A DNA stretch of 59,448 bases, the filler included, from Dugesia japonica (Eukaryota): NCBI GenBank assembly GCA_001938525.1. It is 6 parts of 6 records of this genome, joined end to end, with 100 filler letters (N's around TTAATTAATTAA, not from the genome) between each part and the next. Parts side by side here need not be neighbours in the genome. Positions count along the whole stretch, not along the records: positions 39,896 to 50,043 come from MQRL01642810.1; 5 more parts are not named here. One strand, given 5' to 3'. The stretch's first letter is position 1; the number at the start of each line of letters is the position of its first letter. Shown in pieces: positions 16,158 through 59,448 of the stretch. The translations under genes were made by a program, and so were the position numbers. The notes under the pieces were generated by a model, which did not search any database, was not told where the DNA came from, and saw nothing but the letters and a program-made list of their open reading frames with translations.

Positions 16158-16259
16158 ATATAGATAGATAGTGGCGCACTAAACCACATCCTCGGATTAC
16201 AAAGTGGTTTAGAAATTCAGTTTGGAATTTTGGTTTAGTAATTTAGTATCTATCTATAT
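16158..16259. mobile_element. 102-bp mini element with Polinton-like terminal inverted repeats
   Basis: Left ATATAGATAGATAGTGGCGCACTAAACCA vs reverse complement of right ATATAGATAGATACTAAATTACTAAACCA. The left end matches the Polinton terminus consensus seen elsewhere in the window. Confidence 0.55.
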
Positions 16260-16775
16260 AATACTATACAATAATAAATACTAAAAATATTAAATTAAAT
16301 AAATTTTATAAAAAATTAACCTTTTATAGAAATTCTACTTGTTTTTTTTATTGCTATTTTTATTTCTTTCCTCGGGAATTCGTTTTGGCGATTTTTACTC
16401 TTTTTTTCTTACTCCGCACAAAATTTTCTATTGAATAGATGGGTTGATGATAAAATTTGAAATACTTTTTATTTATGGAAAAACCTATGTAAAATATTGA
16501 AAAAACCAAATTCATAACAGATTGGTATAAACGGATTTGAAATCTGAGCAGAAAAGTTATTTTTGAAAAATTTGGATTGTTCACCCGGATTCCCATGAAA
16601 ATTTTAATTGTTTATAAACAAATTTTGTTTNNNNNNNNNNNNNNNNNNNNNNNNNNNNNNNNNNNNNNNNNNNNNNNNNNNNNNNNNNNNNNNNNNNNNN
16701 NNNNNNNNNNNNNNNNNNNNNNNNNNNNNNNNNNNNNNNNNNNNNNNNNNNNNNNNNNNNNNNNNNNNNNNNNNN

Positions 16776-17949: not shown

Positions 17950-18275
17950 AGTAGGTAGATAGTGTCGCACTGGATCAACCCCCTAGACAAAGAACTTTTA
18001 CAACAAAGACAATAGTTCATCGTTTTATAAGGAACAAATCTTTGTTGATCGTCGATTACCTAGCTTTATTTTGGTTACTTTTCAAAGTGGAGAACAATAT
18101 AATGGTAGTTATAAAAGTTCAAGTTCAACATGTCAAAATCTAGATGCTGTGTCTGTTTCCTTGACGAAAAACACTGATTATCGAGAAATATATACTCACG
18201 ATTTTACAAACAATAATTATGCCACAACATATATGCAATCTATAGTATGAAATATGGGATATTTGGATAAGAATA
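17950..18275 (+). mobile_element. Polinton remnant: terminus (17950-17970) followed by a major capsid protein fragment (18013-18275)
   Basis: AGTAGGTAGATAGTGTCGCAC terminus. Translation FYKEQIFVDRRLPSFILVTFQSGEQYNGSYK...DFTNNNYATTYMQS matches the MCP C-terminal jelly roll and is homologous to 37500-37710. Confidence 0.7.
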
Positions 18276-25483: not shown

Positions 25484-26584
25484 GGTAATGTGCACAAGTT
25501 GTTGTAAACCATTGTTAATATCGGATTTTGTTATAAACATTTATACTATTGTCTTTTGGCATTTTATTTTTTTAAAGTTTGTTTAATGTCACAAAATTTT
25601 TGAATTCTGACATTTGCTTTCTATGTTGGTAACATTTTTGCATTATTTGATATTAAATCCTGTGCTATTTTCATTTCAATTGCACCAATACGTTTAAGAA
25701 TGGACAAATTGATACTATACTGATTGATACTATATAGCGCTTATAACATTTATTTATGTAAAACAAAGAGTTCAATAAAGTTTTGAATCTTGAGCAAGAT
25801 TTATTAATTATCCACTGTCATCGCGTATATTGATTTTTATATAGTTTATACATAAATTAGAAACTGTTAGATACATAAATATTAACTTCGCCAACAATTA
25901 TAAATTCAACAATATTACTATAAATAAACATACTATAATAAACATTTAACTCTCCAAAAAATAAATCAATACCCATCACCTTCCCTCATTCACCCTCTTT
26001 ATAACAAACCAACACCTATCCAAATCCAACAAAAATTCACAAAACTATATACTCATCGTACTCCAAATGCGGGATAACCCATCATTCTGATTGGATGCGC
26101 TCACAATTCTGGAAACCCCTGAGATTTTTTCGCCTTTAGTTACCTTTACCAACATATATAAAACTTTCGAGAGCCAGACAAATCCATCATTAAACACTCA
26201 AAAATACACACACATACACACACCTTTTGACTGTTTTTCGTATTTTCAACCCACACTCACATACACTGCAAATTCAAAAACTTTGCACCGAAAAATAGAC
26301 GTGCACTTTACACACACATTATCAAAACCCCCAATACCCTCAATACTCCCCATTACCATAAAAAAAAATTCCGCCAAAAAAAATTTCAAAAAAAATCAAA
26401 CAAAATTTAAATTCCTAGAAAAATCCCCCTTGATTTTTAAACCAATGAAACAATTTTTTTTCAAATTTAATCCGCTCAAAATACTTAAATCAATAAATCC
26501 ACGATAACCAGTAATCACACAGTTGATGTGAGCGTATGAGGTCAGCCCCCCGGTCGTGATCTGGTGTGCTAACATCTATCTACT
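25484..26584 (-). mobile_element. Deleted Polinton remnant: terminus (26564-26584), PW-type fragment (~25610-25706), protease fragment (25484-25538)
   Basis: Reverse-complement terminus AGTAGATAGATGTTAGCACAC. LSILKRIGAIEMKIAQDLISNNAKMLPT matches the 43090 ORF, and VYNKIRY*QWFTTTCAHY matches the protease. Confidence 0.75.
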
Positions 26585-31039: not shown

Positions 31040-32249
31040 AAATAGAAGAATCGCAGATATTTTACACATGAAATAAAAAAAAATAATAATATAAAAATAA
31101 TTACACCTTTTTTGCATAATTTCATTTACAATAAAGTAAGAATAAAAATAAAAATAAAACGAATATAATTTTAAAAAGTTAGTTTTTTGTTTCATCATAA
31201 AATTAGAAGTTTATTTTATGATACAAAATATCTCGAATCAAATGAACAAATTTCAAATTGTTTGGGATTGGTCATTGGAATTTCCGAAGATTTCAGAGAA
31301 TAGTTTAATCATATGTTAAAATTTTCTGAATGTTGGATAATAATCATGATTATTTCCAGGATAGCTAGATAATGTTATCTTCTGACTTTGTATGTNTGAT
31401 GTTTCATATAAACTATGTATGAAGCATGTATGTGTTAAGTTTTCATGTGTTGTTATACATTGTTTTATATCATCGAATTTATATAGGAAATGCGTTCTTA
31501 AATCGCTTTTTAGTAAACGATACTCCGTCATATAGTACAGGAAGGATCGTGAGGAGTTTCATAGTCAGGATTTACACATTCTATCCTAAAGATACAGGTG
31601 TTGAATATGTGTTCAAAGTTTGCGTTGATACTAATTAAATTTAGATGTTAAGAACCTTTAATTCTGAAGAATAGGTTATGTTGTATGTGTTGCGTTTTTG
31701 TGACCATATCTCCAAGTTTAAAGCTCTGTTTAGTTTCGATGTGTTTGAGGAGTTCTGTGTGGGTTTTGATAAAACCGAAATATTTGAGTTTGTAAGGTAA
31801 TTTGAGATAAGTGATGTTCAAGGTGAGTAAGGTTATTTATGTTCCGAAAAAAAGAAAATGTAATATCTTATCTTGATGTGATTGTTTATTTAGAGTGAGG
31901 TTTCTTCTTCCGAGGATTTGACTCGTAATACTTTCAGGAATATTATCTACTTAATTGTGTTTATATCATGTGGTATTAAGGTATGAGCTCAAAATGGTTC
32001 AAGATAAGTGTATTTAACATTTGTAACTTAATAAAATATATATGTAAAACTTGATTTAAAATACAGAAAGTTGAACTGTTTCTTATCTTTATAGCTTGCT
32101 GCTATTATCTTGGGAGTATCTTCATCTAACTTATCTATTATAATAACCGGTTAACATAACCGGTTAACTCTCTCTCTCCTAATTAAATATATTAATTAGG
32201 ACTTTGTGCTGTTTCTTGTTTACTTTGAAGACCAATTTTTTTAATGTGC

Positions 32250-32865
32250 AAAAATCATTTTTAATTTTAATAATATCGAATCTTTTTGACACGAGAAATT
32301 TGAGAAGAGGTTAAAGTCAGACTGATGGTCCGGTATGGCATCTTGTCTGATTTACGATAATTTTTCTATCAGTCTGAGAATTTTATTTTTGCTGAATTTT
32401 GTTAAGAGATAACTATATTTGCTAAACTCTTCTTTAATGTGACTAAGTACTGATCCGATAGCTTCAAAACAAGCATCTGTATCAAGTACAAAAACTCTAT
32501 TCTTCTTATGAAAGTCTAATATTGCTGTATTGTCCGCTAACTTTGGAAAACATTGTTGAAATTTATTGGATCATTTTAAGACCTCATCTTTACCTGAAAT
32601 GGTATATCCGTGAATAGATCATCGATAATAATTTACTAATCTCATGAAAGAACACAGGGGACAAATTCAAACAGGAGGTTCTGCCTTTAAAATTTCTTCA
32701 ATTTTCCTTTTATTGGTTCTTACTTAATCGGCTCTTACTATGTGTCCCAGTAAGATCAACTCTCGTTGATGAAATTTACATTACCCCTGGTTTACTTTCA
32801 AACCAGCACTACTGATACGTTTAAAAACCGTTTCCAATATATCATCGTGTTTTTTTTCTAGACAT
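32250..32865 (-). pseudogene. Gypsy pol fragment (RT thumb-RNase H)
   Basis: HDDILETVFKRISSAGLKVN..CKF....LLGHIV...LVNYYR...FVLDTDACFEAIGSVLS. Confidence 0.85.
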
Positions 32866-34771: not shown

Positions 34772-35842
34772 TTATTTTATCGGAAAAAATTTCTTCATTT
34801 CATATCGAAACGGTTTCATGTTTCCATAATAAATGAAAATATTGATTGATTCGACTACCATTGAAAAATACAATCCAATATCATGAATATTATACATGAT
34901 TTGAACTTGATTCCGTACAAATTCACTGTTGTCAGTTAGATTTTCTAAATATGTTATTATAAAAATTAGAAATGCTACCGATAGACCTCCAGCAAGAAAT
35001 AATATTGATAATATCAACACTAAAATTGTTGCTTTGATTTCTTTTTGAAATTGTTTCTTTGAATTCTTTCTTAGCCTTTTCACTTTATTTTGATTTTCAA
35101 ATATTTTCCATAATAAAGAAAAGTTGATAAATAAAATCATCATAACTTGTATGAAACCTGTATTAAGAAATAAACATTTTGACCATTTTAAAATTTCAAT
35201 TACAATTTTATCGTAACTTGCATATGAAGTACAATAGATCTTTTGACCAACTCTTATACTTCTACTAAAAAGAAATGTAAATAATGTCACCATAATAAGT
35301 ACAAATGACATTATTAAACTGGCATAAACTGCACTTTTATATCCGTATTTAATCATTTGTAAGGGATAATAAACTGCCAAAACTCTATCTAAACAAATTA
35401 AAACAAAAGTTCCACAAGACAAAGTTGAACACATAGTATAAAATCCTCTAAAGATTTTACAAGCTTCATTTGACAGATTAATTATAAAAAAATAAATCTC
35501 TCCTTCACTTGAATATGGTAATCCTTTAGCTGGAAACAACCACAACCAACCGTAAGAAAATATAAATAATGTATCATAAATTGATAAGAATGTTAATAAA
35601 ACAGTTTGTCGAGATTTTTTCGGATATTGAAAAGTAAATATATAACATATAAATAAATTACTAACTAAACCAAAGCTTCCAACTATTGGAAAAACGTAAG
35701 CAGACAAAATACCAAGTATGTGACTTAGATAACATAAAGTTGAATTAGTAGTAGACTCGTTTTTTATTTGACATGTATATATCATATCATAAGGAGTGTC
35801 AATATAGGCGTAATTAGCTTTCAGTTGAACATAATCTTTCAT
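34772..35842 (-). CDS. Intronless class A (rhodopsin-like) 7TM GPCR, flatworm-expanded orphan/peptide-receptor-like type
   Basis: Intact 356-aa ORF with seven hydrophobic segments, N-glycosylation sites (NES, NST), TM1 GLVSN, TM2 LSIYD, ECL1 Cys (ACK), CLDRVLAVYYP (DRY equivalent), ECL2 Cys, EIKAT at the TM6 start, and TM7 SINIFIY plus helix-8 FR. Confidence 0.95.
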   Translation of the reverse strand: MKDYVQLKANYAYIDTPYDMIYTCQIKNESTTNSTLCYLSHILGILSAYVFPIVGSFGLVSNLFICYIFTFQYPKKSRQTVLLTFLSIYDTLFIFSYGWLWLFPAKGLPYSSEGEIYFFIINLSNEACKIFRGFYTMCSTLSCGTFVLICLDRVLAVYYPLQMIKYGYKSAVYASLIMSFVLIMVTLFTFLFSRSIRVGQKIYCTSYASYDKIVIEILKWSKCLFLNTGFIQVMMILFINFSLLWKIFENQNKVKRLRKNSKKQFQKEIKATILVLILSILFLAGGLSVAFLIFIITYLENLTDNSEFVRNQVQIMYNIHDIGLYFSMVVESINIFIYYGNMKPFRYEMKKFFPIK

Positions 35843-36329: not shown

Positions 36330-36696
36330 ATCGATATTTTTGCAATATATCGTTTTAATAAAATCAGTATAATTTTTTTTAAAATTTTTTTTGTATAATT
36401 TATCATTGATTAAATAGGATTATCGAATAACTAGGATAAACAAATCAAGTTTTCTTTGTTGAAAAGTAAATTTTAGTTTTTTGAAAAACCGTAATTAAAA
36501 ATTGAAACGGTTTTTATGTTTTCATAATAAATAAGAAGTATTGATTGAATCGACATTCATTTAAAAATAGAATGCAATGTCATTTATTATATATATATTT
36601 GACTATCCTATTTATTCGATAATACTATTTAATCGATGATAAATTATACTGTTTTTAAAAGTCTTCATTAAAACGATGTATAGCAAAAATATCGAT
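36330..36696. repeat. Inverted repeat arms (36330-36438 and 36604-36696) flanking a GPCR fragment
   Basis: ATCGATATTTTTGC.ATA.ATCGTTTTAAT...GTATAATTTATCAT.GATTAAATAG.ATTATCGAATAA.TAGGATA occurs in both orientations. Confidence 0.85.
36439..36603 (-). pseudogene. Degenerate paralogous fragment of the neighbouring GPCR (TM7-helix 8-3' end)
   Basis: 36503-36603 aligns with 34806-34906 (GAAACGGTTT..ATGTTT.CATAATAAAT...TATTGATTGA.TCGAC). It translates QIYIINDIAFYF*MNVDSIN vs QIMYNIHDIGLYFSMVVESIN. Confidence 0.8.
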
Positions 36697-36700
36697 TCCT

Positions 36701-37010
36701 TTACGTTTCGGTTTATTTGGTATGAAAACTGTTCAAAATGTACTAGCTAATAACGGAAAAATATTACCAACATTAAAATCTAATGCATGAACTAGGTAAT
36801 GTTGTATTTTCTTTACCAAGTGGAGTAATGACATGATATCAAAATTAGCAAACATATTGCCAACGAGTATAATAAACAAAGTACCGAGCAAAATAACTAA
36901 TATTACAAAATTGCAAAATTAACCCAACAGGCGAGAGACAACTAATAAGCGCAAAAAGTTATATACATCACGTACAAGACTTCGAATGAGATGTTATTTA
37001 ACAATATTTG
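36701..37010 (+). pseudogene. Polinton PW-type small protein, partial
   Basis: LRFGLFGMKTVQNVLANNGKILPTLKSNA matches the 43090 ORF, followed by a basic tail TNKRKKLYTSRTR. Confidence 0.7.
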
Positions 37011-37013
37011 AAA

Positions 37014-37945
37014 ATGATTTGTTTAAAACGGAATTATTTATTTTTGATTGTTCTTCGCCTTAAACTGTTTATGAATATGATGCATTTGAAGACTTGTTTC
37101 GAATGAATGCAATTGCTTATCAAAAAAGCGAATTATTATTTTTTATACATGAATCTCAAACAGAATATTTGAATTTGAGTTCTACTTTATTGCATGTACA
37201 CGAAAAAGTAGTTAATAGAGCATTTTTTCTTTGCAGTTTATTGTAACTTGATTTTATGGATCAGCCTAAATATCATATTCCATGTGTTAATGCACAAATT
37301 TGAATTACTAGATTATTTTCAACCATGTGTTTAAAATCAACAGCTGACGAGACAAATTATCAATTTTAGCAAATGTAATTGTTAAACGAGTCGAAGTTGA
37401 ATCTTTAGTATTGGCAGGTTATCAAATAGTAATAAATAAACAAAATGAAGTTTATCCAATAAAAAGAAGGAAATTGTATATTTTGAAATTAGTAAACATA
37501 GTATCGTATTTTATAAGGAACAAAGTTTACGTGATCTTCGACTACCAAACTTAATTCTAGTCACATTTCAAAGTGAACGTCAATATGTTGGTAGCTATAA
37601 AACGTCTAACATAAACTTTGTTCATTTCAATGCTACTTCCGTATCTTAATCGAAGGACATTGATTATCGAGAAATTTATTATCAGTATTTTGAAAACGAT
37701 AATTATAGCGCTATATATAATTATATATATATTATATAATTATATAAATTCCAAACCAAATACTTATTCTTTATATTGGTTCTTGATCCAAATTTTGATA
37801 TTCATCACAATCAATTACCTCAACTTGTAAATTTGCAGTTGAATATAAAGTTTTCGTAAGCTTTGCATACACCTGCATATGTTATAATTTATGGTGTATT
37901 TGAAAGCAAAATTCACATTAGTGGCAACTGAACAATACTAATTTA
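37014..37945 (+). pseudogene. Polinton major capsid protein (double jelly-roll, hexon-like), internally deleted
   Basis: KTELFIFD..SP*T...ELLFFIHESQTEYLNLSSTLLHV; LDFMDQPKY; LPNLILVTFQSERQYVGSYK; C-terminal QLNIKFS.AL...YVIIYGVFESKIHI. Confidence 0.8.
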
Positions 37946-39895: not shown

Positions 39896-40300
39896 TGTTT
39901 TAAATTTTAAATGGAAATTAAATAGCGAATGATTAGTTTTGTTTTAAATTTTATATGGAAGTTAAATAGTGAATGATTATTTTTGTTTTAAATAACGAGT
40001 GATTATTTTTGTTTTAAATTTTAAATGGAAATTAAATTGCGAATGATTAGTTTTGTTTTAAATTTTAAATGGAAAATAAATAGGGAATGATTAGTTTTGT
40101 TTTAAATTTTAAATGGAAATTAAATAGCGAATGATTATTTTGTTTTAAATAACGAGTTATTATTTTTGTTTTTAATTTTAAATGGAAATTTAGTAGCTAA
40201 TGATTATTTTTGTTTTAAATTTTAANTGGAAATTAAATAGCTAATGATTATTTTAGTTTTAAATAACGAGTGATTATATTTGTTTTAAATTATAAATGAC
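39896..40300. repeat. Minisatellite, ~44-bp unit interspersed with a ~24-bp subunit (Polinton subterminal)
   Basis: TTTTGTTTTAAATTTTAAATGGAAATTAAATAGCGAATGATTA repeated, with the variant TTTTGTTTTAAATAACGAGTGATTA. Confidence 0.9.
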
Positions 40301-40382
40301 GATGTAATAATAAATTAAAAAGTTTGTTTAAATTTTATTATTTAAAAAAAATTAGAAACATTAAAAAATTTATATAGTAAGT

Positions 40383-40529
40383 CTGAGCGGGAAATTTAAA
40401 TATTAAATCTGCGCAGGAAATTTAAATATTAAATCTGCACGGGAAATTTAAATATTAAATCTGCGGGGAAAATTTAAATATTAAATCTGCGTGTGAAATT
40501 TAAATATTAAATCTGCGCGGGAAATTTAA
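40383..40529. repeat. 26-bp tandem array (~5.5 copies) containing GCGGGAAATTTAAA
   Basis: Period exactly 26 (GAAATTT register at 40391, 40417, 40443, 40469, 40495, 40521). Confidence 0.95.
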
Positions 40530-40723
40530 TTATGAAGTCTGTCTTGACGATAGTTGCTATGGATATTANNNNNNNNNNNNNNNNNNNNNNNNNNNNNNNN
40601 NNNNNNNNNNNNNNNNNNNNNNNNNNNNNNNNNNNNNNNNNNNNNNNNNNNNNNNNNNNNNNNNNNNNNNNNNNNNNNNNNNNNNNNNNNNNNNNNNNNN
40701 NNNNNNNNNNNNNNNNTAAACAC

Positions 40724-40790
40724 TTTGACCTTGAAAAAATTTGACCTTGAGGGGGGAGGGGGTGTTTATGTGCGCTAGGATCTATCTACT
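40724..40790 (-). mobile_element. Polinton terminus (outer end at 40790) with G-tract and two TGACCTTGA motifs
   Basis: Reverse complement AGTAGATAGATCCTAGCGCAC matches the termini at 17950, 26584 and 59125. Confidence 0.7.
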
Positions 40791-41030
40791 CATATGTTAT
40801 GCATGATTTACTTGAGATTATTATAAATATTGTTCGTGGTAATGTAAATTTGAGCGAATCTAAAAAAAACATAAAAAAACATTGAAAAACCTTACTATCG
40901 CTTGTAAATACTAAAAATAGGAGATTGATTAGGAAAGTAATACGAAATAATGAAGGTGGTGAATTTATAGCAGCATTAGGCGTAACTCATTTCAAAAAAA
41001 CAATTGAAGCTTTTGATCAATTTATTAATA
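40791..41030 (+). pseudogene. Small basic Polinton protein (upstream of integrase), 5'-truncated
   Basis: LLEIIINIVRGNVNLSE...KKH*K.L...RRLIRK...NEGGEFIAALG resembles the conserved N(I/L)xxGNVxL...QxGGF small Polinton ORF. Confidence 0.65.
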
Positions 41031-41043
41031 AACAATNGGTGGA

Positions 41044-42108
41044 TTGCAATCATTACCTAATTTTGACTTAAAATTGGCATCGAGTTGTTGTAATGGGTTT
41101 CGAAGCGTAGAGAAATTGATGAAAGCATCTCAAAAAACGAAAAGAAAGACAAAAAAGTGGTTATCGGAACAACTAGCGCACAGTCTGAACAAGCCGATGT
41201 TGAAAAGATTTCCAACAAGAGCATATAAAACATATAGTATTGATGATTTATGGTAAATGAATCTAATGGAGATTCATTCCATATTCAAAAATTAATAAAA
41301 GATACAAGTATATTTTGACATGTATCGATGTATTCAGTAGATTTGCAAGAGCTGTTCCTGTTAAATCAAAAGCTGCTAATAATATGGAACCAGCAATCAA
41401 GTCAATGTGTAAAAATGGACATCCAGATAATTTACAAACGAATTTGGGTAAGGAAGTTTACAATTCCAAGGTGAAACAACTTATAAATCATCTATCCATA
41501 AACCATTACAGTGTATTCTCTCAGTATAAAGCTGCACATGTAGAGATATTTAATCGCACATTGTGAGATGCATTGAAAAGTACTATGTACATGTTGGTAA
41601 TAAAACTTGAATAAATGTTTTACCGAAACTTATTCATAGTTATTATCATTCTGGTCATACGAGATTTAATGGAGCAAGACCGGTTGATGTAAGTACAAAC
41701 AATCAATTAAAGTTATGGTTATCACTTAAACATTCAAAAGCAAATAAAATACCAAAATATAAAGTTGGTGATCATGTGAGAATCTCAAAAATATCTGCTT
41801 CACCATTTATCAAGAATTTCAATAGTAATTGAAGTGATGAAGTTTTTCCAAAAAACAAAAATAAACAAAATCCGATCATGTATGTTAATAAAGATTATGA
41901 AGATAATATTGTTCAAGGAAAATTCTATGAACAAGAATTACAAGTCATTCCACCACCAAAGATAAATGGAATAGAAGCAATAATCAAATCAAAAGAAACT
42001 GGAAAGAATAAACAATACTATGTAAAATGACATGGATACGAAAAACGGAGTTGGATATTAGCATCGCAAATAGTCAATCAGGAAGAAAATTTAGATGAAA
42101 TCGAGTAA
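41044..42108 (+). pseudogene. Polinton retroviral-like (c-)integrase with C-terminal chromodomain
   Basis: KWL..Q..HSL.KP...RFP...IDDLW; LTCIDVFSRFA; LQT.LGKE.YN; KAAHVE.FNRTL; KYKVGDHVRISK; GKFYEQELQ; YYVK*HGY...SWI. Confidence 0.95.
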
Positions 42109-43100
42109 TTTCTATACGCTTTTACCTAGTAATAGCTGTCCACTTATTCATCCTAAGAATAATGTTAGTAAATTCATTGTCGAGCTACAAAATCCAATTT
42201 ATATGGATGGTAGTTGAGAAATTGCAATGATGGACTTCACCTTTCTATAGTCACCATTTCCGGTATATAGCAAGTCAAAAATTGAATATATGACTGCAAA
42301 AATATATTGAATTAAATAACTGTAACAATAAATAACAAGAAAAAAACACTTAGTGTTGATAAAAATAAATTTTTTGAAATATTTGAAAATAATCTCATAA
42401 GATTTTATTGTGATTTTCCATATATTGTCATATTTGAAGATGCACATATCGCACAATCATTTAAATTAGGATTTAAATCTAACAAATTATCAAAGAAATT
42501 TGGTCATGTCTATACAAACTTTACAAATGATGACACAGTACAAAAAGTAAAAATTAAAGTAACTTATACAGTGGTGAATTATCAGTTTATAGATGATATA
42601 TACATATCAGAATTGGAACAATTAAGTTAATATTTGACCGAAAATTTTACTCAAATATTTAAGAAATGTCTTATAAATGCGGATAAATATTTTGAATTCG
42701 AGCTACAAGATGATGTCAAAAAAGTTGTATTTGATAATGTCTTGACAAGAACATTGGGATTATTCTCCTGAAGATATGAAGGAAGGTCAGTTCAAAACTA
42801 TTACCAAGTCAAAAATAATGAAATTACATCAGCAAATGTTCATCTATAGTAGTCTTGTTGAACCTATAATTNNNNNNNNNNNNNNNNNNNNNNNNNNNNN
42901 NNNNNNNNNNNNNNNNNNNNNNNNNNNNNNNNNNNNNNNNNNNNNNNNNNNNNNNNNNNNNNNNNNNNNNNNNNNNNNNNNNATGTATAAACAATATAGA
43001 AATTAATATACGCGATGATAACGGAAAATTAATTAAGTTTCCAAAACATTCAAAAATCCATTTAACTTTACATTTTAGAAAACTAAAAAATGAATCCTGA
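42095..43100 (+). pseudogene. Polinton minor capsid (penton-like, single jelly-roll) protein
   Basis: FYTLLPSNS...PKNNVSKFIVELQNPI.MDG.*EIAM; MFIYSSLVEPII; IEINIRDDNGKLIKF...LTLHFRK. Confidence 0.9.
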
Positions 43101-43323
43101 TATTTTTTCAATGTATAGTACTAGTCAAGCAGGTGGAGAATTACCTTACTTTCTTTGAAAACAGTATGGATCTAGTTGGTTGAGAACCATAGGTAGATTT
43201 GCTTTACCGATTCTTAAACGTATTGGTTCTTTTGGTATGAAAACAGCTCAGGATGCACTAGCTTATGCCGGAAAAATACTATCAAAATTGAAATCAAATG
43301 GATTAGCTGAACTTGGAATTTAA
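43090..43323 (+). pseudogene. Polinton PW-type small virion protein with GG motif and amphipathic helix
   Basis: YSTSQAGGELPYFL*KQYGSSWLRTIGRFALPILKRIGSFGMKTAQDAL. Confidence 0.8.
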
Positions 43324-43325
43324 AC

Positions 43326-43468
43326 TTTAAACAATAAACCTGCTCAAATACTAGTATTCGATCCATTAGCATTTAATTATCCATCAATGTTGGTGTCACA
43401 CCTATCGAAAATATTGAAGCCAATAGTCTACAATAAAATCCGATATCAAGATCCATTTACAACTACAC
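43326..43468 (+). pseudogene. Central fragment of Polinton protease joined directly to PW (MCP deleted)
   Basis: NNKPAQILVFDPLAFNYPSMLVSHLSKILKPIVYNKIRYQDPFTTT aligns with 38170-38310. Confidence 0.75.
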
Positions 43469-44474
43469 TTTTTATTATGGTTGAAAAAACAACATTGTAC
43501 TTGACAATATTTATTTGTTCTTGTTGTAAAAAATAAATGTCTTTTATTGAAATGAAATCTTTGTTATTTATTAAATATTTGTAAGTAATATGCTAATAAT
43601 ACATGTTTTTTTATTATCAAAAAAAAATTAAATTAATTTAAAATACTGCAACGTAATATATCTGTATTTTGTAAAATTAATTTAAAATATTACAACGTAA
43701 TATGCCTGCATTATTTTAAATAAATTTGTCATTTTAAAATACACACATATTCGAATTTGATTGGTTAGATTTGAAAAACTTGCTAAAATTTATTATTATT
43801 CATCACAATTTCAAATTATTTTTAGAAAACAAGTGAGCTTGAAGTAATTTATTATTAACATTATTAACTTTTATTTTTAGAATAAACATGAATTCATATA
43901 AACAAAATGGAAAAAGATTTATTTCAACTACGAATGCTGTAAGATTGTTATTATTTATTATTAATAAATTAATTATGTAATTTAGAATTTTAATGAAATG
44001 CGACATAGAGGTGAAGGATCTCACGTTAGTTCTTTTGATTTTATTATATTTTTAAATATTTTTTTATAAGTTAAATTTTAATAAAATAAAACTTTTATGT
44101 TAAGTTATTATGAAGAACAAATTGCCATGTTCTATGTTATGAAGAAATGTTCTATATTATCAAGAAATGTTATGAAAAAGAAATGCTCTGTGTTTTTTTA
44201 AATGAAAAAGTTCTATGCTTTTATCATTTTTTTCTGAAAAAATTGCATCGCTAATGACATTTTTTATTAAAAATTGCAACAGTAAAAAAACGTTTATTAA
44301 CAATTACACCGGGAATGAGGTTTTTTATATAAAATTGCATCACTAACTTGATTTTGTTTATTAAACATTACCACTTTTATATGTTTTTTTTTAAATGGAA
44401 AATAACAGTTAATAAATTTGTTTTAAGAAGAAAAATGTTAAAATCATTATTTTATTAATATTAAATTATTTCAG

Positions 44475-45260
44475 AACTTTGCAAATTATACAATCATTGC
44501 GTAAATGTGAGTCATAATGGTGACTGTCATAGTATCATGGAAGAATATTATGGCCAACGGTTTTATGGAATAAATTATTTTGTGTGTCCCAATTGTAAGG
44601 TATTAGGCTTAAGTGACTATCCAAGTTTTTATATGACGCATAAGAAACACTTGTCTTGTTTTAGTAAAAGTAAAAAAAATATTTTAAAATCAATATTAGA
44701 TAGTCAGATGGATAGTGAGTTTTATGAAGCACCAGTAAATAAGAGAATTAAGATGGATGAAATAACAGTTAAGGATGAACCGGTTGAAATAATTGTTATT
44801 GAAGATGATGTTGAAGAAATAATGATCAAGGATGAACCAGTTAAAATAATTGTTATTGAAGATCATGTTAAAGAAAAAATAATCAGTTGAAAAAATTGAA
44901 TATGTTCTTGGAGAAATTATCAATTTGGATCTAAAAGAAGAAACAACATATATTGTATAAGAAGAAACAGCAAATATTGAATCTGATGATTGGAAAAGTT
45001 TTGAAATAATTTATGAACTTGATGAAAAAGATATCATGTTACATGAGCTCGTCGATATGAAAGAGGAAAATAATCAAGTTGGTGAATCGATAATGAATAC
45101 TGAAGAAGATATCATGTTACAACAATTTATGAATGCAGAAGAAACGGAAATTAATAATCAAATTTGTGGATCAGCAGATAAAACTGCGGAGGATGAAGTA
45201 ATTATAGAATCGGATTTGTATCGTTGTCATAGGATACTTAAAATAGATGTTTTGAGATAG
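44475..45260 (+). pseudogene. N-terminal extension / terminal-protein region of pPolB (Zn-finger-like, acidic repeats)
   Basis: Acceptor-like ttatttcAG at 44474, CPNC...H..H, NLS-like PVNKRIK, and a 57-bp duplicated VKDEPVEIIVIEDD. The 45036 ORF is in frame with pPolB across one stop. Confidence 0.6.
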
Positions 45261-45275
45261 AATTGTCGTGAAATA

Positions 45276-46370
45276 ATGTTACCAGAAGCTATAGTAAACA
45301 AATTATTTCAGACAATAGAAGGAATGAAGAAAGTTAAAATTCAATTTGGGATACATGTAGAGTTCAAAAGAATAATAACAACTGCTGATGGAGAAGAATT
45401 TGAGTTTAAAACNTGTAGGATATCAAATAGAGCCGTTGCATTAACTGATAACGTTTTTGAAGATGGGATCAACCAATTGAATGAGAAAATAACAATAAGA
45501 AGTGAACTAGGCTCCAGTTGGATGTTGAACAGAATACTTGAAATTAATTTAAAAATTACAAAGATCGCAGATATATGTCGACTTTCAGGAAAAAGTTATA
45601 TTCCAACACCGGAAGATTTAAAAAAGAAAGACGCAATTGTAAACATCAAGAACAATGATAATTACTGTTTTATTTACAGTATTCTTGCTATCACCAAAAG
45701 TGATCAAGTTGGACAAAGGAATAAAATCCGAGTAACATTATATAAAAAATACATGTCGGAGTTTATTTTTGATGAAGAGGATATGCCAATGAAACTGATT
45801 GATATACCTAAGTTTGAGAAGAATAATCCAGGACTATCCATCAATGTCCTATCATGGAATCCAGAATCAGTGGAGGATGAAGATGATGATGTAGTAATGA
45901 AACATCCAAATTTATACATAATTCATCGTTCAAAAGTAATAGATGGAGAAAAAATATATCTGTTATTAAAAATATATCTATATGGTTGGGCACTTAGTCA
46001 AAAATTACCCTTTGCAAATTTTGAATGGGTCTATGATGGATTAGATAGGATTTTGGAAGAGTTTAAGAATGCAGGCCTAGATTCATTGTCATATGGATAC
46101 ACTCTAGAGGTTAACATGGTGATTCCTGCAGAGATTCATGATTATTTGAATGATTTGCCGGTTGCAGCAGAACATAGAAGCGCTCCAGGTTGTAAAGTGA
46201 AGAAATTAATATCAACGCTCTACTCCAAGAACAATTACGTAGTGCACTGGAGATTGCTGCAAATGTATTTAAGTTTAGAAGTTAAAGTAATAGAAATTCA
46301 TCGAGGAGTTATATTCAGCCAGGCTTCAATTTTTGAGAATTATATCAACACCAACACAATTCTCAGATAA
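45276..46370 (+). pseudogene. Polinton pPolB with in-frame deletion of the exonuclease region and truncated C-terminus
   Basis: GSSW, SYIPTP..L.KK.AIVNIKN.DN.CF.YSILA, IPKFEKNNP.LSINV, then directly LYGWALSQKLP, GYTLEV...IHDYLNDLP.A.E, KLI.TL..K.NYVVH, IHR...FSQ...YI..NT..R. Confidence 0.93.
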
Positions 46371-46650
46371 AATTGTAGTACGGAATTGGAAAGAAATTAT
46401 TATATACCTAACTATAGAAGAAATGCTGGAAAATATTGAAAGAAATTATTTCGATTCCGAATTAAAAATATTACCATCAATTCAAGAAGGTAATTTAAAA
46501 AAGATATATTATTTAATTATAAGATTTAATTAAAATTATATGCTTAAAATAAAATAAGACTTTGATTAAATAAGATTTATTATAGAACATTAAAATAAAC
46601 CACACATAAAAGCAAACAAAATATTTACAACACTTAACAAATAAAGTCTT

Positions 46651-47414
46651 TTACAACCAAGAAACAAGATGTTGGTGTGATTGTTTGACATTGCATACTG
46701 GATCTAAACTAATAAATAATACGTTTACATAAATAAAAACTATTTTACAGACATTTTTCTTCCTATCCACACGAAATTGTCTTTGTTTACCAAATGCAAT
46801 TGATAGAGCTTGCATTTTAACATTTGTTCTGTTTATATTAATTATCTCCGGACTCTGATATTGTCTGCCCATGTTCTATTTATTGGTAATGTTCACTTTT
46901 TCTTCCTTATAAATCTCAATAGCTACTGTTAATGGATCAAGTTCATAAAACCTTACCAAGTTTTTCATCAAAAACGTCATGTTTTCAAGAACGTTTGGAT
47001 CGAATTAAAGTTTTTTAGAGCTTTCTTATTTTCTTAATACCTAATTAAATAATAATTATTGTATTAATAATAATAATAATATTACCACCAAACTATCAAG
47101 AAATTGAATTTCTATCAAACTCATTTGTAGTTTCTTCTCCAACTTATATAACGATACTACAAAATTTCGTTGTTGGATATTTCTGTCATTGGATTAATAA
47201 AGGGTTCCAGATTGTATTCTACTTTTTTTCTCTCTGCTTTTTTTATAATACACCTATTCAAATTGTCCATATAATTCAGTGTATAGGCTTGATTAATGAT
47301 TGACAATACTTTGTATCCTGCATTTGGTAGAGAATCTTCATTATCTTTGTTGCAAATATCTATCTGCTTGAGCATTTCATATTGTTTGTGTGATGAGTTG
47401 CGAATATCTACCAT
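46651..47414 (-). pseudogene. Spliced Polinton accessory gene of unknown function
   Basis: ATG at 47414 with a TATA ~35 nt upstream. A ~44-nt GT-AG intron at ~47041-47084 preserves the frame (QFLDSLV|VLRK...FYELDPL...). Several stops are present. Confidence 0.45.
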
Positions 47415-47447
47415 TTTGAAAATAATGAAATATTTAAAAGAATCTCT

Positions 47448-47985
47448 ATTTATATACTTTTTTATGTATGTTTGTATAATTTTTATTAGTTATAGAAGGG
47501 ATAGAAACAAACTAGAAACCAATAGAAATCCTGGAACCAATAGAAATAAAGAAACCAATAGAAATCCATCTGGAAAAAGAAAAGAAAAACAGTTGTTGTT
47601 GTAATAAATGTTTCTTATTGTAATTAGTTTTTTATTAATAAATACAATAGATNTGCAACTCAGATGAAACTCAAATGCAACACATATACACTAAAAAATC
47701 ACATGCCTGGGAATTGTTATTGATATTTTAAATAAATGCAATACGTATGCAACTCAGATGCAACCCACATACACTGAAAATCACTCGCTTATGAATTTTA
47801 GACTTCCTCGTCCCTTGCAAAATAACAAGACTGTCCCATCTCTTACATAAATAAATTAATTTAATTAAATTTAATTTAATTATAATAAAAAGATTTCCCA
47901 CAATGAAATGAAAAATTTCCAACCAAAAGATTTTTTTTGAATTTCCCGCCAAAAAATATTTTTTTTGAATTTCCTGCCAAAAAAG
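47448..47985 (-). promoter_or_regulatory. Putative promoter: TATA, 3x CCAAT (18-bp period) and E2F-CHR composite sites
   Basis: TATATAAAT (reverse complement of 47448-47456); AACCAATAGAAAT at 47517, 47535 and 47553; TTTGAA-TTTCCCGCCAAAA at 47936-47954 with a one-mismatch copy at 47964-47982. Confidence 0.55.
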
Positions 47986-48489
47986 TTTTTAAAAATATCC
48001 AGACTTGCCTCTTCCCTGTTCGAAAATATTAAAAAACAACCCTTCCCGGTTCAAAATACCGAAAAAATAACCAAAAATACATCAAATACATTAAAATAAC
48101 ATTACTTTCATTAAATTTATCAATTTCAGCAAAATACAGCATTTTTAACCAAATTAAAGATTTCAAAAAATTTTGACGTCATAACCACACAACAGAAAAA
48201 TTTCAAATAAATCTTATAAAATCCGATAATTAATTCTCTTTCCAGGCATACCAACCTCCACCTCACGAAAAATTTTTTAACACACTTATACTACTTAAAA
48301 ATAAACCAATCAAATAGTAGCCCTTAAAATAAAAAATCAAAGTACATTCGGCAACCAAAATTTTTTCCATTACATTACCTCTCCAACAAACCATCAACTA
48401 ACAAATTCCATCAACAACAAACAAACCTACAGCCTCCATAAAACTACCCATGATAACTCATACGCCTGTGCCCGTGTATGAGAAAGGCC

Positions 48490-50043
48490 ATTTGTTTGAA
48501 TGTTCGAGAATTGAAATTTCTGGAATTCGTGGATTTGTGTTTCGTTGTTGTTGAGCCTGTTGCGCTAAATAATCAATTTCCATAGATAAATCGTTCTGAA
48601 TGACACTGAGGAATTCTAATCAGTTCATGGGGCGGCTCCTCGGAAGTAACGTTACTGGAATAAGTGTGATTTTTAATTTCTCGTATCTAGTTCTCCATTT
48701 TCCATACTCATTTGTTAAGTCAACATTTTCAATGATAAGATTCTCATTTTTTTCTTTCATCCCTTGTTTTCCTTTGTTTAACTGTTTATTCTCCCGAATC
48801 ATATATTTATTACTGTTTTCCAGATTCTGTATTATTGTACGACTTTCCTGACACGCTTCCTTCCATCTTTTACTCTCAATCTCTTAATTCTCTTTATCTT
48901 TGATTTCTCTTTGAATTCTTTCGAAATGTATTTGCTGAGCCTGGGTTCTGGCTAAATATTTATTTTCAATCGTTAATTCTAGCATCTTAGTTTTCTTTTG
49001 GTTTCATTTTATTTCTGTTCTATTTTCATCAATTCTATTATAACAATAAGGGTTAAGAATAAATTCAATTTGTTATATATTAATTCTAAGCTGGACTAGC
49101 ATCATCTCTGTCTTTATATTCACGCTAATTTGTATGGGTATTTACATTTCACTTGGCTTAGCATTTCATATGTAACAGTTTAAATACCTGCGATTGTCTT
49201 CTCGACTTCACTTTACTTTACATCTCTCCTTTATTTGGATTCTCTTTTCTCACACAACACTCATTTTGCAATTCTTGTTTTCTACAGAAATAATTGTGAT
49301 TCATTTAAATCTTTTGCACTACACTACACTCTACTATAACATTTTGAGCTTAAGCTGTTTACACAATTTTCTACTTTCTCATTACCACATATTGTAATTA
49401 ACAATATTATTATAGCTACAAATTCACCGACTCTACCGATGAGTCTCATTCACCATCCATCACCCGCTTCTAATATCCACGTTATCGTCTTCATTTTCTC
49501 TAATTGATTTAGCTAATCTGGTTTGATTTTTTATCCCGTTGGCCCTTTCCATCTTTTGCATTAGTCTTTCGAAAATATCGTTTTCTGCCTGATTCAGCAC
49601 TCTTATTGGCACTTTTAATTTTTCAATTGTTTTCATTCCAGTTTTGTGTTGATTCACTTCGACTATTTCTCTTTTACTTGTCGTATTGATTTTTGTGATA
49701 TTGTTTACATTACTCTTTTTTATTGTTTCTGGTTTTGTCGCCTCTCAACCTCGTGTCGTTTTCGGTTTACTGATTGGCCTTATTGACGTTTCTCTTGTAC
49801 TTGTTATCCTTGTTGTAATTCTTGTTTTGATGACTTGTTTTGTCGTTTTATCTGGTAGTAGCTCCCACACTATCATAACCTTCACTTTAAACCATATTCC
49901 ATATTTTAATTCTTGCTGATTGCCGCTCCAATTATAATTGAGTAATAAGTCACCATTTTTCCAATCTTGAAGTGATAAATAATGTCCGATTCTCACGTTT
50001 TGTTTTCTTCCTTGCAACACTGATAAGTCTACAAACTTTTCTG
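48490..50043 (-). pseudogene. Degenerate ORF region with Thr-rich stalk, a hydrophobic segment and a coiled coil; possibly a 3' accessory/env-like region of an LTR element
   Basis: KTRITTRITSTRETSIRPISKPKTT, then FVAIIILLITICG (other frame), then a long heptad-like stretch. Many stops. Confidence 0.3.
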
Positions 50044-53349: not shown

Positions 53350-53589
53350 TCTACATTAGTTTTGAAAAATTCACTGTATTTCTTTATTTATCCATCAAAG
53401 CCACTTCTTATTGACCGTCCATATAAATTTGATTTTGAATCTCAACACTGAAATTACTAGCATTATTATCAGAATGAATAAGTGGACAACTATTGCTCGG
53501 TAATAGTATATAGAAATTATTCGTTTTACTCATTTTTCTTCTTCTTTTTTGAATTTCGATTTGAGATGCTGATATTCGAGTATTCGAAT

Positions 53590-54315
53590 GTTCCCTTTGA
53601 TCTTATAATCTTTTCTATTCTAAATACTGTTGACTGTGGAATTACTTGTAATTTTTGGACATAAAATTTTCCTTGAATAATATTATCTTCATAGTCTCTA
53701 ATCATGATTGGATTATACTTGGATTCTGTTTGATATTGATTTTAGATATTTGAAACACTTCATCGCTCCAATTACTATCAAAATTCTTGATGAATGGTNA
53801 AGCTGATATCTTTGACATTCTAACATGATCACCAACTTTATATTTTGGTTTTTTAATTACTTTTGGTTTTTGTTTCAATAGCCATAATTTCATTGAATTT
53901 TCAAATTATGCATATACAGATTTTGCTCCATTTAATCCATTATAACTTCTATGATTATAATTATAAATTATTTTTGGTAATACATGTATCCATGTTTTAT
54001 TTCCAGTATGCACAAAGTACGTTTTCAATGCATCTCTTAATGTTCGATTAAATCTTTCAACATATGCCGCTTTGTATTTCGAAAATTCTGAATAGTTGTT
54101 AATTTTGAGAAGTGAAATAATATTCTTAACTTTAGAGTTGTAAAATTCCTTTCCCAACTCAGTTTGTAAATTATCTGGATGTACATCTTCAAACATTAAC
54201 TTGATTGCCGCTTTCATTTCATTTGCAGATTTTGCCTTGACTAAAACAGCTCTCGTAAATCTGCTTAATACATCGATACATGTTAAAATGTACTTGTAAC
54301 CTTCATAAATATTTG
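53590..54315 (-). pseudogene. Second Polinton integrase, partial
   Basis: YKYILTCIDVLSRF...LQTELGKEFYN...KAAYVERFNRTL...KYKVGDHVRMSK...WSDEVF...QGKFYVQKLQV...FRIEKIIR. Closely similar to 41300-42000. Confidence 0.93.
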
Positions 54316-54807
54316 AATTTACTACTTTTTTACTACAAGAGTTGTTACTTTGAATTTGTTTACAATGAAGACGTTTACTATTCGACAGTTTTCATTATTG
54401 AAATTCTTGATGAAATATAATGATATTGAAAATTTGATTGTTCCATCCTGTAATAATTGTTTCATATATAATATNAGTTTCATGTCATTAATTTGTTCTA
54501 ATGATTTCAATAGACTCTGTGAAAACATTTATTGTCTTCATTTTCAGGATTAATTTTTGATTGTATAATAAATTATAACAATATCAATTTTTAATGATTG
54601 GTATAGAAAATATTATTCTCACCATCCGCAGAGTTTCTACAAAATTCAAATCAATTAAAGAAATTCAAAAGAGTCAGAAACANNNNNNNNNNNNNNNNTT
54701 ATGATATTTAATTAATGTTTATCAATTTGATAATTTATATTTAAATTATTTTTTAATATTTAAAATTAATTTATTTTAACCAATAGAAATTCAATTAAAT
54801 AATAAAT

Positions 54808-55728
54808 ATGTTTATTTTTTTCTATTATTTTCTAAAATTTGATTTAAATCTAAATCAAAAAAAAACTATGCAATCTGTAAGTAAATCTTTTATATATATT
54901 GATAATATTCTTTACAAACTAAATCGTCTAAATAATGAATTGTTTGCGATATTAGTTCCAAATGATGAAATACCTAATTTCACACCCTTGGTAGAAGAAA
55001 AGATTATAAAAATAAATGGTAGTGTTGGTATACCTATGAATGAAGAAGAATANNNNNNNNNNNNNNNNNNNNNNNNNNNNNNNNNNNNNNNNNNNNNNNN
55101 NNNNNNNNNNNNNNNNNNNNNNNNNNNNNNNNNNNNNNNNNNNNNNNNNNNNNNNNNNNNNNNNNNNNNNNNNNNNTCTCAAAATTCATCAAAATTAAAC
55201 GAGAAGCAAATTATTAAAACTAATAACAAACAACTCAAAATAAAACAAGAAAATAAAACAAAAAAAAATATTTTGATTTCATTACACGATAAGAAAAAAG
55301 AAAATAAAAATGAAAATAAATTAGATATTAAATTTGAAAGCAATGTAAATGAAATTATTGAGAAAAATCCAATTTCTAAAATTGAACAGTTCTACAAAAA
55401 TATTTTTACAAATTGCATTAAACAAAATCAAAATTTAACCATAACTGATGATGATTTATTTGNAGATTTTCCATGTAAAAGTAGTAAAAATATGAAAAAT
55501 AAATTTGGAAATAAAAATCAAACTAAAAATATCAAACTTGAAAATAATATTGAAAACGTGTTTAACAACCACAAAATGCGAACTAAAAAAAATATTCAAA
55601 TTGAAAAAAGCAGCAAAGAATTTGATGAAACTAAAGAAATTTCAATAGATAGCGTAGATTTGGAAGATAATGAAGTTTTAAGAAAAATAGCTTTGAATAT
55701 TTATAATTGTGAAGAAATGAAGTTTTAA
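54808..55728 (+). CDS. Hypothetical K/N/E-rich protein (ORF spans an N gap; probable start 54868)
   Basis: Long stop-free frames on both sides of the gap, with an AACCAATAGAAAT box at 54778 identical to the Polinton promoter motif. Low complexity, no recognised domain. Confidence 0.35.
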   Translation: MFIFFYYFLKFDLNLNQKKTMQSVSKSFIYIDNILYKLNRLNNELFAILVPNDEIPNFTPLVEEKIIKINGSVGIPMNEEEXXXXXXXXXXXXXXXXXXXXXXXXXXXXXXXXXXXXXXXXXXSQNSSKLNEKQIIKTNNKQLKIKQENKTKKNILISLHDKKKENKNENKLDIKFESNVNEIIEKNPISKIEQFYKNIFTNCIKQNQNLTITDDDLFXDFPCKSSKNMKNKFGNKNQTKNIKLENNIENVFNNHKMRTKKNIQIEKSSKEFDETKEISIDSVDLEDNEVLRKIALNIYNCEEMKF

Positions 55729-59124: not shown

Positions 59125-59448
59125 AGTACGGGGATAGTAGCGCACGGCGCTACTTTTATTTAAGCAGTTATCGAGGGGGGAACCCCCCGGGGGGGGGGCT
59201 CGGAAACAAATTACGCTTGAGCTTCGTATTTTTGTCCTCGAATTTTTGGCTTGTTTTTGAGATCAAAAAGTTTTTGATCGGATCAAATTTTTTTTTGATC
59301 AGATCAATTTTTTTTGATCAGAGTATTTTGATCGGATCAATTTTTTTTAATCTTTTTTTATCTTTTTTTTACCTTTTTTTTATGAGGGAATTTTTTTTTA
59401 ATTGTTTTTTTTGTTTTAATAATTAAACTTTTTTTGTTTTAATTATTG
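59125..59448 (+). mobile_element. Probable Polinton left end running off the window
   Basis: AGTACGGGGATAGTAGCGCAC (same length and pattern as the other termini), followed by G/C tracts and short TTTTGATC(G/A)GATCAA tandem repeats. Confidence 0.55.

What the first reader, a model, noticed from the sequence alone, without database searches (positions are those of the whole stretch)
40383..40529. Polinton subterminal array built from an E2F + CHR-like (DREAM) composite motif
Seen: a 26-bp unit whose core is GCGGGAAATTTAAA (intact or nearly so at 40387 and 40517, with 1-2 substitutions in the other copies), ~260 bp inside a Polinton terminus. Known: TTTCCCGC is the canonical E2F/DP site, TTTGAA/TTTAAA are CHR elements bound by LIN54 of MuvB/DREAM, and adenoviruses use E2F sites in early promoters. 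Inference: this virus-like transposon may have multimerised host cell-cycle switch elements, so it is repressed in quiescent cells and active in cycling cells (neoblasts/germline if planarian). I am not aware of this being described for Polintons.
Basis: partly seen in the sequence, partly recalled or inferred. Interest (0 to 1): 0.75.

Follow-up and report, generated by a model that had tools for sequence, protein, structure and literature searches.

The report
Cell-cycle switch repeats at Polinton ends
Two different virus-like Polinton transposons in a flatworm genome each carry, a few hundred bases inside their end, a short tandem repeat spelling the docking site of the host's DREAM cell-cycle repressor, at about the position where adenovirus keeps an E2F site for persistence; binding and function are untested.

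Summary
The array is real: five 26-bp copies plus a partial sixth at 40383-40530, nominally 261 bp (148 of them N) inside a Polinton-type end at 40790. That end (element A) is inserted into another Polinton (B, 40791-48295). The core follows the published E2F/CDE + 4 nt + CHR grammar.

Chance is about 0.001-0.003 per 500 bp, and the two regions do not otherwise align. Adenovirus has an Rb/p107-bound repressive E2F site at nt 271-288.

Limits: only 1 of 6 copies has the whole 14-mer, and the copies decay at the same rate as a neighbouring array. The composite is missing at 2 of 3 other ends in the window and in 65 distant Polinton-type loci. Published planarian data show Polintons rising on differentiation, which argues against 'on in neoblasts'.

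Best reading (0.55): multimerised host E2F/DP-MuvB sites forming a repressive latency switch in the terminal promoter. Known in kind from plant MITEs and adenovirus; my searches found no report for Polintons.

The parts
39896..40337 (+). Upstream array of 44-bp and 26-bp AT-rich units without an E2F site; inferred to be part of element A; the contig starts at 39896
   Evidence: TRF; units split; no GCGSSAAA
40383..40530 (+). 26-bp array of element A: E2F/CDE-like core, 4-nt spacer, TTTAAA; five full copies and one partial; the composite points toward the terminus
40569..40716 (.). Assembly gap of 148 N between array and terminus
40717..40790 (+). Right end of element A (...ATCTATCTACT), with a G-run and two TGACCTTGA words at 40726-40734 and 40742-40750 (nuclear-receptor-type site; label recalled)
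   Evidence: similar ends at 26584 and 17950 adjoin Polinton gene remnants
40791..40796 (+). Candidate 6-bp target-site duplication; the other copy is not in the contig
   Evidence: sequence; 6-bp TSD rule from PMC8097293
40793..41023 (+). Small core-type gene of Polinton B, lacking about its first 30-40 codons where element A is inserted; also has an internal stop
41125..42072 (+). Broken retroviral-type integrase of Polinton B
   Evidence: Pfam rve E 5.2e-07; tblastn to L017 integrase E 3e-60
42107..43314 (+). Broken minor-capsid-like gene (label from position and recall) and a conserved small gene of Polinton B
   Evidence: tblastn to L017 ORFs, E 0.002 and 2e-14, same gene order
44480..46403 (+). 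Protein-primed DNA polymerase B of Polinton B, with a large internal deletion
   Evidence: best homologue E 4.4e-106, PF03175 on 13 of 22 hits; query residues jump from about 332 to 827
47160..47414 (-). 85-aa ORF pointing inward from B's right end, with a TATA-like word about 40 bp upstream; unidentified
   Evidence: no usable Atlas hit
47514..47568 (+). 18-bp repeat with three CCAAT boxes in B's right arm
47914..47990 (-). 28-bp array of Polinton B: TGGCGG, 4-nt spacer, TTCAAA; exact at 47936-47951, 1 mismatch at 47964-47977, third copy decayed; points inward
48174..48181 (.). Palindrome TGACGTCA (CRE/ATF-type; label recalled), 115 bp inside B's end
48290..48295 (+). Right terminus of Polinton B (ACTACT)
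   Evidence: end motif as in PMC8097293

Best explanation
The array is a multimerised docking site for the host's E2F/DP and LIN54-MuvB (DREAM-type) complex, in the terminal promoter/enhancer zone of a Polinton. Shown: it lies in the subterminal zone of a Polinton-type element; its core has the E2F/CDE + 4 nt + CHR layout; a second Polinton has built its own tandem array on the same layout. Inferred: an E2F4-type/DP dimer and LIN54 bind each unit and recruit the Rb-family pocket protein; this keeps the element's first genes off in G0/G1 and somatic cells, as the E2F site near the adenovirus left end does; repression lifts in cells entering S phase or in germ cells, where a self-synthesising element can replicate and be inherited. 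Repression is the better-supported half; which cells release it is open. The copy in this window is a dead, decaying insertion and probably does nothing now.
For: Grammar: E2F TTSSCGC, CDE TGGCGG and CHR TTTAAA are the listed common motifs and the spacer is four nucleotides (PMC5716687). TTTAAA binds DREAM about as strongly as TTTGAA in vitro, and inverse TTCAAA is functional (PMC4176359). Independent instance: B's terminal 500 bp holds the A core at 1 mismatch (7 of 5000 local shuffles) and a strict SGCGG-N4-TTYRAA (15 of 5000), the only strict match in the window. A and B ends do not align beyond shuffle level. Of 38 merged tandem arrays in the window, only these 2 hold GCGSSAAA. Of 14 GCGGG words, none of the 10 outside the arrays has the CHR at the 4-nt offset. 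A and B are separate, nested elements. Other host-factor words lie at these ends: CCAAT x3 and a CRE in B; E2F, CRE x2 and TCAAGGTCA at the end of L035. Adenovirus E2F site at nt 271-288: bound by E2F4/DP1 with p107 or p130 in EMSA and by Rb and p107 in ChIP; needed for interferon-induced repression and persistence (PMC4726734). Some animal Polintons encode candidate Rb-binding LXCXE proteins (PMC8502044). In C. elegans, LIN-54 promotes germline genes and prevents their ectopic somatic expression (PMC3093354).
Against: No binding, TSS or expression data. n is 2 arrays on one contig. The composite is absent at window ends C and E, so 1 of 3 other testable ends has it. It is absent (<=1 mismatch) from all 65 distant Polinton-type loci; E2F words in their non-coding DNA number 2 against 7.3 +/- 3.2 expected; 0 of 7 hand-picked distant ends have the composite and 1 of 7 has a single E2F site. 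The two arrays face opposite ways relative to their termini. 7 of the 8 differences among A's copies fall in the GC core; this matches neighbouring neutral decay, so it gives no sign of selection. B's composite is about 520 bp from the nearest inward ATG, whereas mammalian CHRs sit at or near the TSS. Planarian Polintons as a class go up in differentiated tissue, and no TF motif was enriched at neoblast promoters (PMC10558129). No credible LxCxE ORF in the Polinton remnants here.
Confidence: 0.55

Rival explanations
1. The repeats bind an element-encoded protein (packaging ATPase, integrase or replication factor), like adenovirus packaging repeats; the shared core reflects that protein and the E2F/CHR likeness is incidental or secondary.
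For: Subterminal arrays with other cores occur at or near candidate ends of distant loci (L004 47 bp, L010 26 bp) and window end E (19 bp). In adenovirus the packaging repeats lie in the same enhancer region as the E2F site (Fig. 5 legend). The position 200-400 bp from the end fits a packaging domain (recalled).
Against: The recalled adenovirus A-repeat pattern TTTG-N8-CG is absent from ends A, B, C and E. What A and B share is exactly the host composite, including the CHR variation TTYRAA. Related end C lacks the composite.
Confidence: 0.2
2. A neutral slippage minisatellite in AT-rich DNA; any GC island flanked by A/T runs resembles some factor's site, and the B match is luck or a leftover of shared ancestry.
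For: TTYRAA is ubiquitous. The motif was chosen after seeing A. Copies decay neutrally. The loose BSSSSS-N4-TTYRAA pattern occurs twice against about 1 expected. GCGG-N4-TTYRAA reached 2 matches in 3 of 100 window shuffles. No enrichment in distant loci.
Against: The B test used a motif fixed in advance from A and from the literature; with three ends tried the chance is about 0.005-0.01. Both instances are multimerised, both are subterminal, and their flanks are unrelated.
Confidence: 0.18
3. E2F or pocket-protein binding is real but serves replication timing or repair at the element, not transcription, as proposed for E2F-bearing plant transposons.
For: A review states that plant TE-borne E2F motifs are bound but mostly do not regulate nearby genes and may aid transposition (PMC7329337); one paper it cites for this is listed as retracted. 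A's array faces outward and no gene of A is visible.
Against: The CHR half at the exact spacing points to MuvB, a transcriptional complex. B's arm also has CCAAT, TATA-like and CRE words ahead of an ORF.
Confidence: 0.05
4. The array is not subterminal: the end at 40790 belongs to a short insert whose left arm is hidden in the gap, and the array belongs to B or is misjoined.
For: 148-N gap. A 100-bp element with both such ends exists at 16158-16260.
Against: In two relatives the ATPase gene abuts the core-type gene, but the DNA left of the gap has no hit to either gene (best E 0.35) and is not an inverted copy of B's right end.
Confidence: 0.07

Closest known systems
Human adenovirus E1A enhancer E2F site (Ad5 nt 271-288; PMC4726734, passages read)
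   Same: E2F site a few hundred bases inside the end of a linear genome (protein-primed replication and the kinship to Polintons are recalled); shares the 9-mer CGCGGGAAA with copy 6 of array A; repressive role through Rb-family proteins proposed here by analogy.
   Different: Single sites next to GABP sites, not a tandem E2F+CHR multimer; function shown there, not here; adenovirus does not integrate.
CDE/CHR and E2F/CLE promoter elements bound by DREAM (PMC5716687, PMC4176359, PMC5683655, PMC3093354; passages read)
   Same: E2F or CDE half, four-nucleotide spacer, CHR TTTAAA or TTCAAA.
   Different: Known cases are one or two sites at host gene starts; here 3-6 tandem copies in a mobile element with no mapped TSS.
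E2F-motif amplification by Brassicaceae transposons (Henaff et al. 2014, known only through the review PMC7329337; original not held)
   Same: Transposons carrying and amplifying an E2F motif.
   Different: Plant TEs, especially MITEs; no CHR half mentioned in the passage read; mostly no effect on nearby genes. Here an animal, virus-like element with its own genes.
Polinton/Maverick (adintovirus) elements (PMC8097293, PMC8502044; passages and supplement rows read)
   Same: AG...CT ends, integrase, pPolB and capsid remnants; gene order as in intact locus L017.
   Different: The passages read describe no terminal transcription-factor arrays; all copies in this window are broken.

Membership tests
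Polinton/Maverick (element B) | Retroviral-type integrase | tested here: met
Polinton/Maverick (element B) | Protein-primed DNA polymerase B | tested here: met
   (internally deleted)
Polinton/Maverick (element B) | End motif AGTAGT...ACTACT | tested here: met
   ACTACT at 48290-48295; motif; the left end is not in the contig
Polinton/Maverick (element B) | Capsid, ATPase and protease genes | tested here: inconclusive
   Weak minor-capsid-like hit (E 0.002); no major capsid, ATPase or protease hit within B; deleted or beyond the insertion
Polinton/Maverick (element A, which carries the array) | AG...CT end of Polinton type | tested here: met
   End reads AGTAG inward and resembles ends C and D, which adjoin Polinton gene remnants. 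It is not the exact (AGT)2 motif.
Polinton/Maverick (element A, which carries the array) | [quoted passage not shown] | not testable with these tools
   Contig begins at 39896; the other end is not in the window
Polinton/Maverick (element A, which carries the array) | Own integrase and pPolB genes | not testable with these tools
   No coding DNA of A is in the contig
CDE/CHR or E2F/CHR (DREAM) element | E2F (TTSSCGC) or CDE (TGGCGG, BSSSSS) half-site | tested here: met
   E2F word in 2 of 6 A copies, BSSSSS in 1 more, TGGCGG in 1 of 3 B copies (definitions)
CDE/CHR or E2F/CHR (DREAM) element | CHR (TTYRAA) four nucleotides downstream | tested here: met
   TTTAAA in 5 of 6 A copies, TTCAAA in 2 of 3 B copies
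CDE/CHR or E2F/CHR (DREAM) element | Within about 200 bp of a transcription start | not testable with these tools
   No TSS data; B's site is about 520 bp from the nearest inward ATG
CDE/CHR or E2F/CHR (DREAM) element | Conservation among relatives | tested here: inconclusive
   Shared by A and B; absent at C, E and in 65 distant loci; neutral decay within A
CDE/CHR or E2F/CHR (DREAM) element | DREAM binding and cell-cycle-dependent repression | not testable with these tools
   Needs EMSA, ChIP or reporter data
Adenovirus packaging A-repeat | TTTG-N8-CG pattern (recalled) | tested here: not met
   0 matches at ends A, B, C, E
Structured RNA family | Rfam match | tested here: not met
   0 matches at E <= 0.5 in 39896-48400

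The most novel reading that the evidence does not exclude
Animal Polintons and adenoviruses share an ancient control design: an E2F/Rb-family repressor site 200-400 bp inside the genome end that holds the virus latent until the cell cycles or a viral Rb antagonist acts. Flatworm Polintons have repeatedly amplified it into DREAM-site arrays. This would name the host switch that keeps endogenous Polintons silent and predict the cells in which they replicate.
Probability: 0.25. Interest if true: 0.8.

Novelty: new variant of a known kind. Interest (0 to 1): 0.52.

Why it matters
How integrated Polintons are switched on is open; the vertebrate survey's abstract notes that their particles have not been observed (PMC8097293). 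A DREAM-type array at their ends would give a concrete, testable host control, link them to adenovirus persistence and to the Rb-binding 'Oncoid' proteins proposed for these elements, and mean that Polinton insertions scatter clusters of cell-cycle repressor sites through a stem-cell-rich genome. Four searches listed no paper on E2F or CHR sites in Polinton ends. I saw mostly listings, and the library lacks most subscription journals and Repbase reports.

Tried and rejected
(1) Hairpin as the shared feature: array A folds (z -3.98) but array B does not (z 0.85). (2) RNA family: none. (3) Sigma-70 promoter or terminator scan: 0 found and irrelevant to a eukaryote. (4) Homology of the 44-bp array to B's intergenic DNA near 44380: 7% of shuffles scored as well. 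(5) An E1A-like LxCxE gene beside B's array: none credible; 2 of 22 pPolB homologues have the word, probably by chance; the 85-aa ORF has no Atlas hit. (6) Word-based search for the small core-type gene found nothing; HMMER found 9 hits. (7) Published Polinton DNA as a test set: the supplements of PMC8502044 (cut when read), PMC10748475 and PMC8097293 gave no motif hits and showed no element DNA; PMC11414722 holds C. elegans genomic alignments where E2F-like words occur but cannot be tied to Polintons. All uninformative. (8) Distant ends: one search printed ten AGTAGT candidates. I kept four (L004, L006, L010, L014), dropped six that looked internal (none had GCGSSAAA or the composite), and added three (L013, L035, L062). 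None is confirmed by a paired TIR. (9) The TCTCTCTCT stretch near 32170 was not counted as a Polinton end because the adjacent ORF at 32352-32570 looks like LTR-retrotransposon RNase H (by eye). Ends D (17950) and F (16158) were too short to test. (10) Other genomic copies from this host could not be obtained; the viral and metagenome collections stayed unchecked.

Full report
Setting. The window is 28% GC and is a concatenation of contigs joined by spacers of 44 N, a 12-base all-frame stop word and 44 N (five such spacers). The finding lies on contig 39896-50043. A 356-aa rhodopsin-type GPCR on another contig has cestode proteins as its only named homologues, at 34-35% (2 of 9 hits). The host is therefore a flatworm; 'planarian' is my inference from the AT content and Polinton load.

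Observation. The array is as described: period 26, five full copies and an 18-nt sixth at 40383-40530. The 14-mer GCGGGAAATTYRAA is exact in 1 of 6 copies, off by one in 3 and by two in 2. The end motif stops at 40790, 261 bp away, but 148 of those bases are N.

What the element is. Right of 40790 lies a decayed Polinton, B: a small core-type gene, an rve integrase, a minor-capsid-like remnant, a conserved small gene, an internally deleted pPolB (E 4e-106) and an ACTACT end at 48295. The order matches intact locus L017. The end at 40790 cuts B's small gene about 30-40 codons in, so it belongs to a second element, A, inserted into B. A's end resembles ends at 26584 (C), 17950 (D) and 59125 (E). 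C adjoins remnants 75-76% identical to B's genes and D adjoins a double-jelly-roll major capsid fragment, so ends of this type are Polinton ends; E has no visible gene and is uncertain. Could the array be B's own promoter, with A a tiny insert hidden in the gap? A 100-bp two-ended element exists at 16158-16260. But in L017 and L042 the ATPase gene abuts the core-type gene, and the DNA left of the gap has no such coding hit (best E 0.35). I assign the array to A.

Motif grammar. Published definitions (passages read): E2F TTSSCGC, CDE GGGCGG or TGGCGG, CHR TTTGAA, TTCGAA or TTTAAA, CDE four nucleotides upstream of the CHR (PMC5716687); TTTAAA binds DREAM as strongly as the canonical CHR and inverse TTCAAA works (PMC4176359); worm DRM uses BSSSSS and TTYRAA (PMC5683655) in a hybrid motif (PMC3093354). 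A's unit has this layout. The CHR half alone is uninformative (728 counts over both strands).

Independent instance. B's right end carries a 28-bp array (47914-47990) with an exact TGGCGG-N4-TTCAAA at 47936-47951 and a one-mismatch copy. It is the only strict SGCGG-N4-TTYRAA in the window. In dinucleotide shuffles of B's last 500 bp the A core (<=1 mismatch) appears in 7 of 5000 and the strict motif in 15 of 5000; Markov models of order 1-5 give 0.0002-0.0013 per 500 bp. The A and B ends do not align above shuffle level in either orientation. Only 2 of 38 merged tandem arrays hold GCGSSAAA, and they are these two. B's arm also has three CCAAT boxes, a CRE-type palindrome and a TATA-like word before an inward 85-aa ORF of unknown identity.

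Results against. The composite is absent at ends C (which has only TTTTGGCGGAAT, 210 bp in) and E (324 bp visible), so 1 of 3 other testable ends has it. The looser BSSSSS pattern occurs twice against about one expected. One scan of prokaryote genome contigs gave 66 loci encoding distant pPolB relatives (25-39% identity), which I take to be eukaryotic contigs binned by mistake; I analysed 65 (496,688 bp). The composite at <=1 mismatch occurs 0 times, and E2F words in 83,583 non-coding bases occur 2 times against 7.3 +/- 3.2. Of 7 hand-picked candidate ends none has the composite; one (L035) has a single E2F site about 300 bp in, with two CREs and TCAAGGTCA, ahead of an ATPase-like ORF. The A and B arrays face opposite ways relative to their termini; CHRs are reported to work in both orientations. 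Among A's copies differences run 5 of 24 at CpG, 2 of 24 at other G/C and 1 of 100 at A/T sites; the neighbouring 44/26-bp array gives 4 of 18, 4 of 45 and 9 of 278. The core decays at background rate, each difference private to one copy. That fits a dead insertion and says nothing for or against past selection.

Biology. Adenovirus has a conserved E2F site at nt 271-288, bound by E2F/DP with Rb, p107 or p130, which represses E1A and is required for persistence in vitro (PMC4726734, passages). A's sites lie nominally 267-404 and B's 319-360 bases inside their ends. Animal Polintons often encode candidate LXCXE proteins (PMC8502044, passages); I found none here. In planarians an activating E2F is reported lost (PMC9768645, one passage), and e2f4-1 is highest in X1 cells, with lin9 listed among neoblast genes tested (PMC4494696, passages). 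Polintons as a class gain RNA and H3K4me3 on differentiation and are held by SMEDWI-2 (PMC8532177, passages and section 12), and neoblast promoters show no enriched motif (PMC10558129, passages). A repressive role is therefore plausible, but 'on in neoblasts' is unsupported; class-level data under piRNA silencing cannot test single families.

Mechanism and rivals. I favour (0.55) a host DREAM-type docking array in the terminal promoter, acting as a latency switch released in S phase or germ cells. Position and grammar are shown; binding, repression and release are inferred. Rivals: a site for an element-encoded protein (0.2), a neutral minisatellite (0.18), misassignment across the gap (0.07), E2F binding for replication or repair (0.05).

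Novelty. TE-borne E2F amplification is known in Brassicaceae (review PMC7329337, passage; original not held), and terminal E2F control is known in adenovirus. Searches for Polinton+E2F (3 papers, one E2F mention each), Maverick+E2F+transposon+virus-like (1 paper), Polinton+Schmidtea (13) and Polinton TIR/promoter terms (45, 30 listed) showed no report for Polintons. I saw listings for most of these, and supplements that were cut or held no DNA may bear on generality. Verdict: real feature, new variant of a known kind, interest 0.52.

Noticed in passing
window 40726-40750; L035 120-128: TCAAGGTCA (NR5A/ERR-type nuclear-receptor word; label recalled) occurs twice within 70 bp of A's end and once 82 bp inside the L035 end, each after a C-run; background is 0.005-0.026 per 500 bp. 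It may be a second host-factor site shared by Polinton ends.
   Followed up: partly
L035 39-650: Candidate Polinton end with two CRE palindromes, an AP-1-like word, CCAAT and a single E2F site ahead of an ATPase-like ORF; looks like a promoter built from host sites.
   Followed up: partly
window 26340-26400 and 59330-59400: Ends C and E share a T-run / GGCGGAA or GAGGGAA / T-run feature 210-260 bp inside (local score 49 against shuffle maximum 35); E2F-like in C, without the CHR.
   Followed up: partly
window 16158-16260: 100-bp element with 13-bp inverted ends resembling A-type termini; folds into a hairpin (z -6.0); possibly a minimal Polinton derivative.
   Followed up: partly
window 1155-1921: Another pPolB remnant, followed at 1909-1921 by TGACCT directly beside an E2F word; not at a visible end.
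   Followed up: no
window 36690-37922, 18014-18274, 53391-54318, 25611-25853: Further Polinton fragments (major capsid, integrase, small genes) on four other contigs; the genome is rich in diverged Polinton families.
   Followed up: partly
window 39896-40530: In both arrays CpG sites differ about 21-22% of the time against 1-3% for A/T sites, although planarians are said to lack 5mC (recalled); only 4 of the 9 changes are transitions. Small numbers.
   Followed up: partly
window 34772-35842 (-): Intronless 356-aa rhodopsin-type GPCR related to flatworm orphan receptors; host gene.
   Followed up: yes
L001-L066: 66 Polinton-type pPolB loci sit in bacterial and archaeal MAGs, about ten in one MAG, probably eukaryotic contamination; L017 holds a near-complete gene set.
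   Followed up: partly
window 54808-55728 (+): Gap-spanning low-complexity ORF of about 306 aa, unidentified (only a weak Pfam hit for its first 81 aa).
   Followed up: no
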